DNA of 64,000 nt from Escherichia phage vB_ECOLIGBLB0003. The position numbers and the translations under genes are program-made. The notes under the pieces are model-generated. The model was not told the DNA's origin and ran no database searches. It saw nothing but the letters and a program-made list of their open reading frames with translations. Where the stretch lies: the sequence record PV654517, one strand, 5' to 3'. Shown here piece by piece: positions 11,276-14,517 of this stretch (position 1 is the first letter of the stretch; each line of letters opens with the position of its first letter).

Positions 11276-11716
11276 TTAAAAGAGGCTGTTCATTATTCGG
11301 TAAAGTGAAGGACCCATCACATATTGCCACTGAGTACGAGGAATAAGAGCAAAAGCGTCCATCTCTGGAATCATAACGCCATCTTTATTTTCAAAATAAG
11401 ACTCGCAATGGCAATTTCTAAACATCTCATGCTCTACTGGAATCGTATAGTAAAATAGCTGTAAGTCTTTATTACTAGAATATTTAAATACACCTAGGTC
11501 TTCTAGAAGGTCTGGATTATAATTGCTAAAGCCAGTCTCTTCTAAGCATTCTCTTTTTGCAGCTTCCAGTGCATTCAAATCAGAACTTTCTACACGGCCC
11601 TTTGGAATATCCCAGCGATGTGCCATCATTCCAGGCTTACGAGAACCAGTAACCCGACCCATAAATAAATCTTTATCTTCTGTCATAAAGATAATACCAG
11701 CTGATAGTGTTTTCAT
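11276..11716 (-). CDS. nudE: Nudix hydrolase
   Basis: Nudix box GRVESSDLNALEAAKRECLEETGF; ATG at 11716 preceded by AGGAA (ORF-track start 11731 also an ATG, start choice uncertain). Confidence 0.75.
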   Translation of the reverse strand: MKTLSAGIIFMTEDKDLFMGRVTGSRKPGMMAHRWDIPKGRVESSDLNALEAAKRECLEETGFSNYNPDLLEDLGVFKYSSNKDLQLFYYTIPVEHEMFRNCHCESYFENKDGVMIPEMDAFALIPRTQWQYVMGPSLYRIMNSLF

Positions 11717-12201
11717 TTTAATTTCCTGCATTCAGTGATAAAGTTATTTAAATTTTGAGTATATTTCTTTTCATCAAAAATCTTTTGTTGTCTGCGTAAA
11801 CGCCATGGCATTTCAATGAACATACGCCATATTCCTGATAATACTGCTGCTGTAAAAATATTAACAAGTATAGTTAAAAGAACCCAATCTCCTATTCTGT
11901 CCATTGGATTTTTTATAAAAAAGTAAAATACGAACGATGATATAGGAAGACTAATGATATACCACAGAAGAACCTTCTTATCTGTGAACCAATCAGCATT
12001 CGTTAACTTAGCGCGACCGTTTTGAATACATACGAACTTATCATCTGTTACAGTAAATGGCTTAGCTGCTTGATATCCCATTCTAAACTCCCTAATCAAC
12101 AAATTTTTCATATCTTCGGAACAACCATTCCAGTCAACTCTATCAACTGAAATGCCATCATCCCCATCATCTAAATCATACCAGCGAGTTTTTAAAATCA
12201 T
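11713..12201 (-). CDS. membrane protein (C-terminal FxxxCRK motif family)
   Basis: 162 aa; two TM segments; C-terminus FITECRKLK. Confidence 0.5.
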   Translation of the reverse strand: MILKTRWYDLDDGDDGISVDRVDWNGCSEDMKNLLIREFRMGYQAAKPFTVTDDKFVCIQNGRAKLTNADWFTDKKVLLWYIISLPISSFVFYFFIKNPMDRIGDWVLLTILVNIFTAAVLSGIWRMFIEMPWRLRRQQKIFDEKKYTQNLNNFITECRKLK

Positions 12202-12560
12202 TTAATTTTCCTACAATCACTCACAAACTCTTTCATTGACTCATTTTCAATATAAGACATGTAGCTATTATATTCTTTTAATTGTATTTTGTAATCTTTT
12301 TTTCTTTGCCAATTTATTTTAAAATTATCATAATGAAAATATAAAATGATACCAAAGAATGAAAACAATGAAATAATTTTAGTATAACAAAGCTCACTCC
12401 AAACTTCTGTTATATTTACTGTGCCGTCGATGTTTAAAATAAGACAGTCAATTAACAATCCAAAAAGACTACCTGCAAGAGCTGCAGCTAACGCCACAGC
12501 AAAAATTAAAAATGACTCAGAAAACGAATATTTGACTTTATTTAGTTTTGGCTTTTGCAT
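12198..12560 (-). CDS. membrane protein (C-terminal FxxxCRK motif family)
   Basis: 120 aa; TM segments; C-terminus FVSDCRKIK. Confidence 0.5.
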   Translation of the reverse strand: MQKPKLNKVKYSFSESFLIFAVALAAALAGSLFGLLIDCLILNIDGTVNITEVWSELCYTKIISLFSFFGIILYFHYDNFKINWQRKKDYKIQLKEYNSYMSYIENESMKEFVSDCRKIK

Positions 12561-12944
12561 CGTGATTCCTTAACAAATTTCATAATTTCATCAAATTCAT
12601 ACGCAGCAAGTTTAAGCTGATGTTCCTTTTTAATCTTTTTGCACTGTGCTTTCCAATCACGTACGCGTTTACGATAATGTCTTCCTTGATACCAGTATCC
12701 TACCCAATTTACAGGTACTAATAAAAATGGAACTATCATTGGAAGAATTAGTGTTGACGCAAATATTATATTAGATTCAATATTAGTCATAACATCTATA
12801 ACTATTCCAACCCCCAGTAGAATTACAAATGATACAGCTATTACAGGACCTATTAACACATCAGTAGAAATTATCTGACGCTTTAATTCATACTTCAACG
12901 GTTTACTTGGAAGGTATAGTGATGGTTTTGACATATTCTCTACA
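12542..12944 (-). CDS. membrane protein (same family, start uncertain)
   Basis: ORF-track start 12955 is TTG; first ATG at 12944; TM segments; C-terminus FVKESRCKSQN. Confidence 0.45.
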
Positions 12945-13517
12945 TTCCTTAACAAATTTTTCTAGTAATAAATCACTTTCAAAATTGGGATTTTCTACAA
13001 ATTTATCAAAAAGATCATCAACAATAGTTAAGATATTCTTTTTACTAAGAATACGTTTATTTTCATGCTTCGTTTCAGAATCAACTATAAGAGTAAAGAA
13101 ATATTTCTTGCCCTGAAATTTTACAGTAGTATCAATATAAAATAAATTTGACTTTTGTAAATTACGTTTAAACCATGCGTCACTTAAACTATAAACACCG
13201 AGATAATCAAAATCGTCGTTTAAATAACAAACTGTCCATTCAGGAGAAATGAAATCAGTAAATTCAACATCAAAATCACATGTTAATGAATAAATTGATT
13301 CAATACTGTTAATAAGTATTCCAGGACGTATTAAAGACTTTTTACCTCTAGAAAATCTTCCAGAAAGACTTTCATCAGTTTCATATGAAGAACCCCAATA
13401 ATAATTACGTCCTTCTGCCATGCGTTTAAGAGCATTTAGTAATTGGTCTGGAACATCAACCTGTCTTTGGAACTCTTCAAACATTGAATTGAAATCACTT
13501 TGCATTTTCATTTTCAT
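12903..13517 (-). CDS. hypothetical protein
   Basis: 204-aa ORF with ATG; C-terminal FVKECREYVK echoes the motif of the three downstream membrane proteins. Confidence 0.5.
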   Translation of the reverse strand: MKMKMQSDFNSMFEEFQRQVDVPDQLLNALKRMAEGRNYYWGSSYETDESLSGRFSRGKKSLIRPGILINSIESIYSLTCDFDVEFTDFISPEWTVCYLNDDFDYLGVYSLSDAWFKRNLQKSNLFYIDTTVKFQGKKYFFTLIVDSETKHENKRILSKKNILTIVDDLFDKFVENPNFESDLLLEKFVKECREYVKTITIPSK

Positions 13518-13538
13518 TCCTATTTACTCCAAGTATAA

Positions 13539-13552
13539 GGGGCCGAAGCCCC
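13539..13552 (-). other. intercistronic UUCG-tetraloop hairpin (GGGGC-UUCG-GCCCC)
   Basis: Perfect GC stem; identical 16-mer recurs at 54294 and in sense orientation after gene 18. Confidence 0.5.
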
Positions 13553-13558
13553 TTATCA

Positions 13559-14152
13559 TTATTTCAGAGAATTAATGTATTCCTGAACATCGGCAGAGGT
13601 AGTTTCAACCCCAGAAATATTACCGTTAAAGGTTTCAACTCGAGCAAGGGTATCTTCAATATCAACCTTAGTCAGTGCTGCAATTTCAACTACATCATCA
13701 GCAGTACTAATTCCAAGGGCATTTGCTGCACGAGTTTCACGGATATATTCCAATTTAACCGCAAGTTCTTGACGAGCATCATCTAACTCAACTACTTTCT
13801 TGGCGATTTCAATTCGCATTTCAGCATAACCGTCAGCCTTAGTAGTCAACTGCTCAGCTGTTCGACGATATAGTAAACCGAGTTTAGCATGCATTGTTAC
13901 ATCTTGGCCTTCGGAAAGAAGTTTACGAATTTCACGCTCTTTTGATTCGGCCTGTCGATTCTTTTCGATAACAAGTTCACGAATACGTTTTTCTTCGTTA
14001 ATAGATTTAACAGAAGCAGTTTTTAGATCTTTAATTTTATCAAGTAGTTTTGCTGCTGCAGCAGTATACTGTTCTTCGACAGATAGATTTTTAGCCATAG
14101 CAGAACCAAGTTTAGTGCGAATAAACTCAACAATTTTCTTCAGTGTGTTCAT
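13559..14152 (-). CDS. coiled-coil protein (possibly PspA/IM30-like)
   Basis: 197 aa, charged and heptad-rich throughout; architecture resembles PspA but no diagnostic motif confirmed. Confidence 0.45.
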
Positions 14153-14217
14153 AGTATTTCCTTAGGTTAATTGAGATTTAAAATCCGTAGGAGTATAATA
14201 CTCTATCGTCAAATTAT

Positions 14218-14253
14218 AGGCTCATAATATCTCAATCATGAGCCTGCGTAAAC
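14218..14253 (-). promoter_or_regulatory. early promoter embedded in a palindrome (PeSL-like)
   Basis: Minus strand GTTTACG-N17-TATTAT; palindrome AGGCTCAT...ATGAGCCT spans the spacer/-10. Confidence 0.45.
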
Positions 14254-14517
14254 TTATTTCATATTATTGAAATATTCTTCTGCGATTTCGTCGTTATCAT
14301 GGTAAACTTTAGAAGACAGTTTAACATAACCTTCTGCTGTGAACATATTAATCACAACTTTTACAGTATACCACTGACCATCTTCATTACCCATTACTGC
14401 ATAGGTTTCAAACATCGGATGGTCAGGACCGATAACTTTAATATCATTCACTGTACGACCGAAATCTTCTGAAACGCATTTCATAAAGAAGTTGAACAGT
14501 TCGCCGTAATTATCCAT
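14254..14517 (-). CDS. hypothetical protein
   Basis: ORF-track start 14529 is TTG; ATG at 14517 preceded by GGAG. Confidence 0.45.
   Translation of the reverse strand: MDNYGELFNFFMKCVSEDFGRTVNDIKVIGPDHPMFETYAVMGNEDGQWYTVKVVINMFTAEGYVKLSSKVYHDNDEIAEEYFNNMK

What the first reader, a model, noticed from the sequence alone, without database searches (positions are those of the whole stretch)
11713..14517. Cluster of three paralogous small membrane proteins plus a coiled-coil PspA-like protein downstream of nudE
Three consecutive overlapping genes encode 2-TM proteins ending in a shared basic motif (FITECRKLK, FVSDCRKIK, FVKESRCK), and the upstream 204-aa protein ends with FVKECREYVK. Next to them is a 197-aa entirely coiled-coil protein resembling PspA/IM30 architecture. 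The tandem duplication with motif conservation suggests a diversifying membrane-acting module (superinfection exclusion, envelope-stress manipulation or similar), not recognisable as any described system.
Basis: inference. Interest (0 to 1): 0.45.

Follow-up and report, generated by a model that had tools for sequence, protein, structure and literature searches.

The report
Phage PspA-like protein with motif-tagged partners
This is the phage T4 gene block e.2–e.6: a divergent phage copy of the bacterial membrane-protecting protein PspA, followed by one soluble and three small membrane proteins that are otherwise unrelated but all end in the same short peptide, probably a shared docking tag, and none has a tested function.

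Summary
Window 11713-14517 (- strand) is the T4 early-gene block e.2, e.3, e.4, e.5, e.6, e.8, about 95% identical to T4, with e.7 missing.

**e.6.** It is a divergent PspA/IM30 (bacterial ESCRT-III) homologue. The window protein itself does not hit the Pfam model. The link rests on fold, a family-level profile, and relatives that pass Pfam's cut-off. This homology was already proposed in 2022 for the same PHROG family (phrog_1203).

**e.2, e.3, e.4.** Each has two predicted membrane helices, with both ends predicted cytoplasmic. They are not demonstrably paralogues: once the tail is removed, profile comparison finds nothing.

**The shared tail.** What e.2-e.4 share, also with soluble e.5, is a C-terminal helix motif Φ-x-x-F-[IV]-x-x-C-[RK].
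- It is selected at the protein level.
- Across the roughly 164 kb of T4-type genome scanned, it sits at a real gene's C-terminus only in this cluster.
- In 40 related loci it recurs on 34 sequence clusters, always downstream of e.6.

**Kuttervirus check.** There the PspA-like gene and two tail-tagged membrane genes are present or absent together: 42 of 221 records carry all three.

**Best reading (inferred).** A phage PspA module whose variable partners dock through the shared tail. The function is untested, and knock-down in T4 gave no fitness defect.

The parts
13559..14152 (-). e.6: 197-aa divergent PspA/IM30 (ESCRT-III superfamily) homologue. It has an N-terminal amphipathic helix, a long helical hairpin and two short C-terminal helices.
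   Evidence: phrog_1203 at E = 1.6e-87. AF2 model with pLDDT 80-93 over residues 31-130. Foldseek top hits are Vipp1. Profile A3 against PDB Vipp1/PspA gives E = 1e-4. Relatives P0185 and P0187 pass the PF04012 cut-off and match the e.6 profile at 1e-21 and 5e-20.
12903..13517 (-). e.5: 204-aa soluble protein with the tail motif FVKECR at 12939-12956. It is the fast-evolving gene that always follows e.6.
   Evidence: No hydrophobic segment. phrog_2607. The first ORF after e.6 carries the motif in 36 of 38 loci. e.5-like families are mutually related, with hhalign probabilities of 94-96%. The motif lies in predicted helix 183-198. No fold match was found.
12542..12934 (-). e.4: 130-aa protein with two membrane helices, both ends predicted cytoplasmic. 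It carries the degenerate tail FVKESR at 12560-12577.
   Evidence: Hydropathy and charge distribution. phrog_2604. The position matrix scores it 9.1 bits.
12198..12560 (-). e.3: 120-aa protein with two membrane helices and the tail FVSDCR at 12210-12227.
   Evidence: 12.5 bits.
11713..12201 (-). e.2: 162 aa, made of a 76-aa N-terminal soluble part, two membrane helices and the tail FITECR at 11725-11742. It is intact here but frameshifted in reference T4.
   Evidence: phrog_2203; 24.7 bits. The T4 remnant frame carrying FITECRKLK is shown.
14224..14252 (-). Early-promoter-like site (GTTTACG, 17 nt, TATTAT) lying within an inverted repeat (GGCTCAT/ATGAGCC), just upstream of e.6.
   Evidence: Promoter scan, 9 of 12 matches. 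The sequence was read directly. Function is not shown.
13535..13556 (-). G+C-rich hairpin with a UUCG loop (AUAAGGGGC-UUCG-GCCCCUUAU) between the e.6 stop and the e.5 ribosome-binding site. It could set e.6 expression above that of e.5-e.2.
   Evidence: The effect on expression is an inference.
14254..14517 (-). e.8: 87-aa soluble protein of unknown function. It lies inside the finding's coordinates, has no motif, and nothing shows that it belongs to the module.
   Evidence: phrog_2678. The ATG start was verified.

Best explanation
**Shown**
- The locus is the T4-type early block e.6-e.5-e.4-e.3-e.2.
- e.6 is a divergent member of the PspA/IM30/Vipp1 branch of the ESCRT-III superfamily.
- e.5 (soluble) and e.4, e.3 and e.2 (two membrane helices each) are not detectably related to one another. 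All end in the same amphipathic helix motif, Φ-x-x-F-[IV]-x-x-C-[RK].
- The motif is conserved at the amino-acid level. It is specific to genes encoded just downstream of the PspA-like gene.
- It recurs on 34 sequence clusters across T4-like phages.
- In Kuttervirus, a PspA-like gene plus two tail-tagged membrane genes behave as one gain/loss cassette.
- By the positive-inside rule, the membrane proteins have both ends in the cytoplasm, so every copy of the motif would be cytoplasmic.

**Inferred**
- The tail is a shared docking peptide for one common cytoplasmic partner. The most parsimonious partner is e.6.
- The membrane proteins would anchor or direct the e.6 polymer at the inner membrane, and e.5 would regulate or adapt it. 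This resembles PspB/PspC with PspA, or LiaI with LiaH.
- The module would keep the infected cell's inner membrane sealed and energised, for example against membrane-depolarising abortive-infection effectors or premature lysis.
- The fast-evolving, variable-copy partners would supply specificity.
For: **Identity.** The region is 95-97% identical to T4 66758-71308. The T4 annotation names the genes e.2-e.8.

**e.6 as PspA-like**
- AF2 helices match the α0 / α1 / α2+3 / α4 / α5 layout.
- Foldseek against the PDB: ranks 1-9 are all Vipp1, E = 4e-4 to 3e-2. PspA and archaeal CdvB2 also appear.
- The extended family profile hits Vipp1/PspA chains at E = 1e-4 to 4e-3, aligned from residues 1 to ~146 of both proteins.
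- hhalign against E. coli PspA gives E = 1.2e-4 over 169 colinear columns.
- P0185 and P0187 score 35.1 and 39.0 bits against PF04012, whose cut-off is 33.9.
- The N-terminal helix has a hydrophobic moment of 0.45, against 0.42 for PspA's.

**The motif**
- 126 of 140 strict matches in 40 loci lie within 20 residues of a C-terminus on the coding strand.
- Codons vary freely at conserved positions: Cys is TGT 52 / TGC 49, and Arg uses six codons.
- 146 distinct proteins fall into 34 clusters, both soluble and membrane.
- With the tail trimmed there is no similarity between e.2, e.3 and e.4. With it, similarity is confined to the tail.
- No real T4 gene outside the cluster has it at its C-terminus.

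**Linkage to e.6**
- The gene immediately after e.6 carries the motif in 36 of 38 loci. Every locus has 1-6 motif genes, all downstream.
- In Kuttervirus, 221 records carry the flanking genes. 42 carry the PspA-like gene and 42 carry the two adjacent genes, whose proteins end ...SIVDRAR... and ...QIVDKARK.... All listed accessions coincide and the identity-band counts match.
- STML-13-1 and CBA120 lack all three genes.

**Topology.** The loops between the membrane helices hold 0-1 Lys/Arg. The tails hold 4-15.
Against: - No experiment or structure prediction links the tail to e.6. Complex prediction was not possible with these tools.
- The window's own e.6 gives no Pfam PspA_IM30 hit, even at E = 10.
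- A profile of close relatives alone reaches only E about 2 against Vipp1.
- Long coiled coils are prone to spurious profile matches.
- Knock-down of e.2-e.8 in T4 was scored 'Not Fit', which I read as no fitness defect in the laboratory host (PMC11879866 supplement).
- In a Morganella-phage-like contig, thymidylate synthase follows the e.6 homologue directly. In the most distant contig no motif was seen.
- The motif codons usually overlap the next gene's start region: the median distance to the next ATG is 8.5 nt. Some RNA-level constraint therefore cannot be fully excluded.
- Topology rests on hydropathy and charge only.
Confidence: 0.45

Rival explanations
1. The tail docks onto something other than e.6: a host protein, another phage protein, or the tagged proteins themselves as a hetero-oligomerisation helix. 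On this reading e.2-e.5 are independent accessory factors (anti-defence, host takeover or exclusion). They sit next to e.6 only because this is a plastic early region.
For: There is no direct evidence for an e.6 contact. The tagged bodies are extremely diverse, with 34 clusters, as expected for arms-race accessory genes. They are lost or broken individually: e.2 is frameshifted in T4, and e.5 is frameshifted with e.2 absent in L003. An early-promoter stem-loop of the kind linked to modular shuffling lies beside the block. e.6's own C-terminus resembles the motif only weakly, at p about 0.006.
Against: In Kuttervirus the PspA-like gene and the two tagged genes are gained and lost strictly together, 42 and 42 of 221 records. 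The motif gene immediately follows e.6 in 36 of 38 T4-like loci. No C-terminal motif was found on a real gene elsewhere in about 164 kb of T4-type genome. Co-inheritance shows a shared function, not a direct contact, so this rival is only partly countered.
Confidence: 0.3
2. One reading: e.2, e.3 and e.4 are tandem paralogues that have diverged beyond recognition except for the tail. They would act as diversifying membrane proteins, for example in superinfection exclusion.
For: The three share an architecture: both ends predicted cytoplasmic, two membrane helices, and a basic tail ending in the motif. e.3 hits the e.4 PHROG at E = 1e-3. e.3-e.4 hhalign gives 87% over 53 columns when the tail is included. 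e.2 relates to other membrane clusters at 92-95% with the tail included.
Against: With the tail trimmed, every pair among e.2, e.3 and e.4 falls below 8% probability. The same profiles match unrelated T4 membrane proteins (Imm, Ac) at comparable levels in a six-sequence control, so the residual signal is hydrophobic composition. The tail also sits on soluble proteins of different folds. There are no PADLOC or Pfam hits, and nothing links the genes to exclusion.
Confidence: 0.2
3. The 'motif' is a by-product of nucleic-acid constraints. The 3' ends of these genes overlap the ribosome-binding sites and start codons of the next gene, and that is what is conserved.
For: The next gene's ATG lies within -3 to +15 nt of the motif's last codon in 75 of 128 junctions. 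nudE's ATG is formed by e.2's Glu-Cys codons (GAATGC), and e.3's ATG by e.4's Arg-Cys codons. 40 of 128 motif segments contain a Shine-Dalgarno-like tetramer.
Against: Codons vary freely while the amino acids stay fixed. Cys is TGT 52 / TGC 49. Arg is split between CGN (48) and AGR (45). Phe uses TTT and TTC, and Ile uses three codons. The best-conserved positions, Phe and Ile/Val, are not purine-rich. Only 31% of segments have a Shine-Dalgarno-like tetramer. In 39 of 128 junctions the next start is more than 15 nt away, up to 321 nt. Any C-terminus in tightly packed T4 early operons overlaps the next start region.
Confidence: 0.04
4. e.6 is just a generic coiled-coil protein, and its resemblance to PspA/Vipp1 is convergent or artefactual.
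Against: The chain of significant links is unbroken: the e.6 profile reaches P0185/P0187 at 1e-21 and 5e-20, and those proteins pass the PF04012 cut-off. Alignments to Vipp1/PspA start at residue 1 and run colinearly for about 145 residues. Foldseek's first nine hits all belong to one family. An independent HHpred result for the same PHROG has been published (PMC9409062). GenBank records name members 'PspA/IM30 family protein'.
Confidence: 0.1

Closest known systems
PspA with PspB/PspC (phage-shock-protein system of E. coli and Yersinia)
   Same: A PspA-family peripheral membrane protein is encoded next to small integral membrane proteins whose cytoplasmic parts bind it (established knowledge of the Psp system). 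The α0 helix and the hairpin architecture are predicted for e.6.
   Different: e.6 is shorter (197 aa against 222). The window protein does not reach the Pfam threshold. There is no PspF-type regulator. The partners show no PspB or PspC similarity. They have two membrane helices or are soluble, and are defined by a tail motif unknown in Psp systems. The module is phage-encoded and early-transcribed rather than stress-induced.
LiaH with LiaI (Bacillus PspA homologue and its small membrane anchor)
   Same: The concept is the same: a small membrane protein serves as the docking site for a PspA-like polymer (established knowledge).
   Different: No sequence relation was detected, apart from a weak LiaH hit of E = 5e-3 for relative P0187. 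Here there are several alternative, fast-evolving anchors plus a soluble tagged protein.
Kuttervirus SeF3a Gp_125, 'phage-encoded PspA' (phrog_1203; PMC9409062)
   Same: It belongs to the same PHROG family as e.6. PspA homology and an anti-abortive-infection role have already been proposed for it. It is likewise followed by tail-tagged membrane proteins.
   Different: The paper treats the gene alone. It does not mention T4 e.6, the downstream partners, or any motif. The Kuttervirus tail variant is I-[VL]-x-x-A-[RK], not F-[IV]-x-x-C-R.
Vipp1/IM30 of cyanobacteria and chloroplasts
   Same: These are the best structural and profile matches. They share the amphipathic α0 helix and the α1-α3 hairpin.
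   Different: Vipp1 is longer and has an extra C-terminal helix. It has no such partner array and has a cellular rather than viral role.
ESCRT-III MIM tails binding MIT domains
   Same: A short C-terminal amphipathic helix is used as a portable docking tag within an ESCRT-III system (established knowledge). This is an analogy of principle only.
   Different: There the tag is on the ESCRT-III subunit and binds the Vps4 ATPase. Here it is on the partner proteins. The consensus is different and no ATPase is encoded in the block.
T4 Imm, Sp and rIIA/rIIB (known T4 membrane-acting accessory proteins)
   Same: All are early, non-essential, membrane-associated T4 functions. Like PspA, the rII proteins are thought to protect membrane integrity against an abortive-infection system.
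   Different: There is no sequence relation. Those genes lie elsewhere in the genome and carry no tail motif.

Membership tests
PspA/IM30 family (Pfam PF04012; ESCRT-III superfamily), for e.6 | The protein itself matches the PF04012 model at or above the gathering score (33.9 bits). | tested here: not met
   There is no PF04012 hit for the window protein at E up to 1. None of 28 close relatives hits it at E up to 10.
PspA/IM30 family (Pfam PF04012; ESCRT-III superfamily), for e.6 | Significant sequence links to proteins that do pass the family threshold (transitive homology). | tested here: met
   P0185 and P0187 match the e.6 profile at E = 1.1e-21 and 4.6e-20. They score 35.1 and 39.0 bits on PF04012, positions 2-143 of 220. 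5 of 38 members of alignment A3 hit PF04012.
PspA/IM30 family (Pfam PF04012; ESCRT-III superfamily), for e.6 | Profile-level similarity to solved PspA/Vipp1 structures, colinear from the N-terminus. | tested here: met
   The A3 profile against PDB sequences gives eight Vipp1/PspA sequences among the top nine hits, at E = 9.9e-5 to 3.8e-3, aligning query 1-146 with chain 1-147. hhalign of A3 against E. coli PspA gives E = 1.2e-4, probability 55%, over 169 columns. The narrow profile A1 alone was not significant.
PspA/IM30 family (Pfam PF04012; ESCRT-III superfamily), for e.6 | An N-terminal amphipathic helix α0 followed by the long α1 / α2+3 helical hairpin. | tested here: met
PspA/IM30 family (Pfam PF04012; ESCRT-III superfamily), for e.6 | Assembly into rings or rods, and binding and protection of membranes. 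| not testable with these tools
   This needs purified protein, electron microscopy and liposome or membrane-potential assays.
Canonical Psp or Lia operon | Partner genes of the PspB, PspC, PspF or LiaI/LiaF families lie next to the PspA gene. | tested here: not met
   There are no Pfam, NCBIfam or PADLOC hits to such families for e.2-e.5 or e.8. The partners are analogous in kind, being small membrane proteins, but are not homologous.
Tandem paralogue family (e.2, e.3, e.4) | Significant sequence similarity outside the shared tail. | tested here: not met
   With the tail trimmed, hhalign gives 0.9% for e.2-e.3 and 7.7% for e.3-e.4. e.2-e.4 is below the listed top 30, that is under 0.7%. Single-sequence BLASTP shows only short, weak matches.
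Tandem paralogue family (e.2, e.3, e.4) | A common architecture and topology. | tested here: met
   Each has two hydrophobic segments, and Lys/Arg are concentrated in the N- and C-terminal tails rather than in the loop. The motif lies 3-5 residues from the end. This rests on hydropathy only, with no dedicated predictor.
Shared C-terminal short linear motif (docking tag) | The same short motif, at a fixed position, on proteins with unrelated bodies. | tested here: met
   There are 34 BLAST clusters, both soluble and membrane. Profile similarity is confined to the last 10-16 residues for most pairs. 126 of 140 matches lie within 20 residues of a C-terminus.
Shared C-terminal short linear motif (docking tag) | Conservation acts on the amino acids, not on the nucleotides. 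| tested here: met
   There are 101 distinct DNA contexts. Synonymous codons are used at every conserved position.
Shared C-terminal short linear motif (docking tag) | A defined binding partner. | not testable with these tools
   Only co-inheritance with the PspA-like gene is shown.
T4 Imm / Sp superinfection-exclusion proteins | Sequence homology to Imm or Sp. | tested here: not met
   The e.2, e.3 and e.4 profiles against T4 Imm, Sp, Ac, rIII, 55.8 and 47.1 give a best E of 7.7e-4 in a six-sequence database. That is a hydrophobic-composition level match, and similar values were obtained for unrelated membrane proteins.

The most novel reading that the evidence does not exclude
T4-like and Kuttervirus phages carry a self-contained membrane-maintenance system. 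It consists of a viral ESCRT-III/PspA polymer (e.6) and an interchangeable, fast-evolving set of membrane and soluble adaptors. The adaptors plug into the polymer through one portable C-terminal tag (Φ-x-x-F-[IV]-x-x-C-R, or I-[VL]-x-x-A-R in Kuttervirus). Each adaptor would direct membrane sealing to a different insult, such as a membrane-depolarising abortive-infection effector. That would make this a modular phage counter-defence of a kind not described before.
Probability: 0.25. Interest if true: 0.8.

Novelty: new variant of a known kind. Interest (0 to 1): 0.55.

Why it matters
T4 is the best-studied virulent phage, yet e.2-e.6 were still listed as 'unknown' in a 2025 genome-wide study.

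If the reading is right:
- Five orphan genes, present in over a thousand sequenced phage genomes, become one testable module: a virus-encoded relative of the bacterial membrane-repair protein PspA, with its own family of tagged partners.
- This would give a direct handle on how large lytic phages keep the host membrane energised until lysis.
- It would also bear on how they might neutralise membrane-targeting abortive-infection defences.

The six-residue tail is a simple sequence marker. It can be used to find the partners, which are otherwise too divergent to recognise.

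Tried and rejected
1. Direct Pfam, NCBIfam and PADLOC scans of all six proteins gave nothing significant.
2. hhalign of the close-relative e.6 profile against a narrow E. coli PspA alignment gave a probability of 0.2%. My PspA homologue search returned only relatives of at least 86% identity, so that alignment lacked diversity. The comparison improved only with the broader e.6 alignment.
5. I tested whether the tail mimics e.6's own C-terminal helix (...VQEYINSLK). The position matrix gave p about 0.006 for the window protein and the result was inconsistent across the family, so I kept this only as a weak idea.
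6. I considered the prohead-protease site or capsid-targeting sequence (I/L-x-E, as in MKTYQEFIAE). I rejected it because motif position 4 is not conserved as Glu.
7. The RNA-level explanation was rejected on codon usage.
8. Literature searches for T4 e.2-e.6 by name found only supplementary tables listing them as unknown. Reviews of the Psp/ESCRT-III superfamily do not mention phage-encoded members.
9. The first hhalign batch timed out and was rerun.

Full report
**What is there.** The window is a Tequatrovirus (T4-like) genome. T4 lysozyme e, denV and nudE are recognisable in the ORF list. The 3.4 kb around the finding matches 561 phage records, 496 of them over at least 80% of the query. 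The window aligns to T4 66758-69921 at 95.1% identity and to T4 70321-71308 at 96.7%.

The T4 annotation names the ORFs, all on the - strand:
- e.2: 11713-12201
- e.3: 12198-12560
- e.4: 12542-12934
- e.5: 12903-13517
- e.6: 13559-14152
- e.8: 14254-14517

T4's e.7 is absent here: 46 nt stand in place of 399 nt. Neighbouring genes overlap by 32, 19, 4 and 19 nt. Upstream lie the tRNA cluster and a terminator-like hairpin. An early-promoter-like site inside an inverted repeat precedes e.6. A UUCG hairpin separates e.6 from e.5.

**Checking the observation.** Hydropathy gives two hydrophobic segments in each of e.2, e.3 and e.4, and none in e.5, e.6 or e.8. Lys and Arg are concentrated in the N- and C-terminal tails (4-15 residues) and nearly absent from the inter-helix loops (0-1). 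This predicts that both ends are cytoplasmic, so the tails would be cytoplasmic too.

The strict pattern F[IV]..CR occurs three times in all frames of the 64-kb window. All three are near the C-termini of e.2, e.3 and e.5. Scans of T4 1-50000 and 119000-168903 found no real gene with the motif at its C-terminus. One match lay in an antisense frame and one was internal to gene 30.3.

A position matrix trained without the T4-type clusters ranks e.2, e.5, e.3 and e.4 as the top four of 22,304 ten-mers. e.4, at 9.1 bits, is close to the background maximum and is a degenerate copy.

**Are the membrane proteins paralogues?** Single-sequence BLASTP finds only short, weak matches. e.3 touches the e.4 PHROG at E = 1e-3.

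I collected 40 loci around e.6 homologues from viral contigs. From these I extracted 146 distinct tail-bearing proteins. With the tail trimmed, they fall into 34 BLAST clusters, both soluble and membrane.
- Tail-trimmed profile comparison gives 0.9% for e.2-e.3 and 7.7% for e.3-e.4. e.2-e.4 gives nothing.
- With the tail included, alignments cover only the last 10-16 residues. The exception is e.3-e.4, at 53 columns and 87%.
- As a control, the same profiles match unrelated T4 membrane proteins (Imm, Ac) at comparable levels.

Paralogy is therefore not demonstrated. What is shared is an architecture and a tail. By contrast, the soluble gene that follows e.6 is one fast-evolving family, with probabilities of 94-96% between groups.

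**The tail motif.** One representative per cluster gives the consensus Φ(-3)-x-x-F/W-I/V/L-x-x-C-R/K, followed by 0-24 mostly basic residues. The spacing puts the hydrophobic residues on one face of a helix. The e.5 model places the motif in helix 183-198.

Conservation acts on the protein:
- There are 101 distinct DNA contexts.
- Cys is coded TGT 52 times and TGC 49 times.
- Arg uses six codons, and Phe and Ile use all of theirs.

One caveat: the motif usually sits at the gene junction. The median distance to the next ATG is 8.5 nt. nudE's ATG is formed by e.2's Glu-Cys codons. However, only 31% of motif segments contain a Shine-Dalgarno-like tetramer, and 39 of 128 junctions are more than 15 nt away. 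I therefore rate an RNA-level origin as very unlikely.

**e.6.** Pfam gives nothing for the window protein or for 28 close relatives. Two searches found the family to be compact, with all full-length members near 200 aa: the word-indexed search of 5.8 billion sequences gave 48 proteins, and the exhaustive profile search of 1.84 billion representatives gave 46.

The AF2 model (mean pLDDT 72, hairpin 80-93) has helices 3-18, 25-80, 86-145, 166-174 and 186-196. The structural and sequence evidence is as follows:
- Foldseek's first nine PDB hits are all Vipp1. PspA and archaeal CdvB2 rank lower.
- After adding the divergent members, the profile hits Vipp1/PspA sequences at E = 1e-4 to 4e-3, aligned from residue 1 to about 146.
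- hhalign against E. coli PspA gives E = 1.2e-4 over 169 columns.
- Members P0185 and P0187 pass the PF04012 gathering score. They match the e.6 profile at 1e-21 and 5e-20.

I conclude that e.6 is a divergent PspA/IM30 homologue (confidence about 0.85).

This is not new at the family level:
- PMC9409062 reported by HHpred that phrog_1203, which is e.6's PHROG, is PspA-like in Kuttervirus SeF3a. The paper proposed an anti-abortive-infection role.
- Some GenBank records name members 'shock protein A' or 'PspA/IM30 family protein'.
- Shigella phage Ag3 annotates its copy as 'e.6'.

**Linkage of e.6 and the tagged genes.** In 36 of 38 T4-like loci the ORF immediately after e.6 carries the motif. 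The two exceptions include L003, where e.5 is split into two frames. L033 was not examined. Every locus has 1-6 motif genes, all downstream and on the same strand.

Contigs L043 and L047 hold the members that pass Pfam. They have the SeF3a gene order: UvsX, DnaB, the PspA-like gene, then DNA ligase. In them, two to four genes directly downstream end in I-[LVI]-x-x-[AT]-[RK].

In SeF3a, Gp125 is followed by Gp126 (...VESIVDRARTRNG...) and Gp127 (...LQIVDKARKRRSK), and then by DNA ligase. STML-13-1 and CBA120 lack all three genes at this position.

Counts in the phage collection:
- The flanking genes occur in 221 records.
- The PspA-like gene occurs at 80% identity or more in 42 records.
- The two downstream genes occur in 42 records.
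- All listed accessions coincide and the identity-band counts match, and in the listed records the two sit about 40 nt apart.

In other Ackermannviridae the PspA-like gene is still detectable at about 73% identity. The partner genes are not, which mirrors their rapid divergence in T4-like phages. This cassette behaviour is the strongest evidence that the genes work together. It does not show physical contact.

**Function.** Nothing has been tested.
- CRISPRi-ART lists e.2-e.8 as unknown and scores them 'Not Fit', which I read as no fitness defect on knock-down (PMC11879866 supplement).
- e.2 is frameshifted in reference T4. The unannotated remnant frame still encodes FITECRKLK.
- Both points fit a conditional, accessory role.

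My best reading combines the shown anatomy with established knowledge of the PspA-PspB/C and LiaH-LiaI systems. In this reading, e.6 polymerises on the cytoplasmic face of the inner membrane. The tagged membrane proteins and e.5 dock to a common partner, probably e.6, through the tail. The module preserves membrane integrity during infection. The docking step and the physiological role are inferences.

**Verdict.** The new element is the protein-level C-terminal tag that unites otherwise unrelated partners of a phage PspA homologue, together with the cassette behaviour of the genes.

Noticed in passing
L001 2973-3134 (- strand; T4 record about 67472-67633): Reference T4's e.2 is frameshifted. 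The annotated e.2 is 102 aa. An unannotated 53-codon frame between it and nudE still ends in ...NNFITECRKLK. The window's phage has the intact 162-aa gene.
   Followed up: partly
window 14169-14214: T4 gene e.7 (336 nt) is missing. 46 nt stand in place of T4 69922-70320, between two blocks that are 95-97% identical to T4.
   Followed up: partly
window 11729-11731 and 12558-12560: Start codons of downstream genes are built from the tail codons. nudE's ATG lies inside e.2's Glu-Cys codons (GAATGC). e.3's ATG lies inside e.4's Arg-Cys codons (CGATGC). Across 128 junctions, the median distance from the motif to the next ATG is 8.5 nt.
   Followed up: yes
L008 7700-8494; also L009, L018, L022, L028 and L041, between the motif genes: A second family of small soluble proteins (65-105 aa) occurs in two to five tandem copies. 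They end in ...G-x-W-[VI]-S-S-S-x-x-C. The copies are interspersed with the tail-tagged genes in non-T4 Tevenvirinae and are absent from this window.
   Followed up: no
L047 6661-8123: In a Kuttervirus-like contig, three consecutive genes after the PspA-like gene (197, 139 and 156 aa) look like paralogues of one soluble domain (...FW..F...GFPKV...). Two of them carry an N-terminal membrane anchor. All end in the I-[LV]-x-x-[AT]-R tail.
   Followed up: no
window 9786-10259 (- strand): A 157-aa ORF starts MKTYQEFITEA.... This is the capsid-targeting sequence typical of T4 internal head proteins. It lies beside denV, in a different position from T4's ipII and ipIII.
   Followed up: no
window 15145-15918 and 16454-17086 (- strand): Two homing-endonuclease-like ORFs flank the tRNA cluster. 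The first appears to be a segB-like GIY-YIG protein, whose GTG-extended frame overlaps the predicted tRNA-Tyr. The second is a 210-aa ORF with His/Cys motifs that look HNH-like. Both assignments come from reading the translations; no domain search was run. The tRNA set (Arg, Tyr, Met/Ile-CAU, Thr, Ser, Pro, Gly, Leu) differs from T4's.
   Followed up: no
(e.5 homologues): All e.5 homologues carry a precomputed Pfam family, PF26876. It is not in the local Pfam copy, so I could not look up its description.
   Followed up: no
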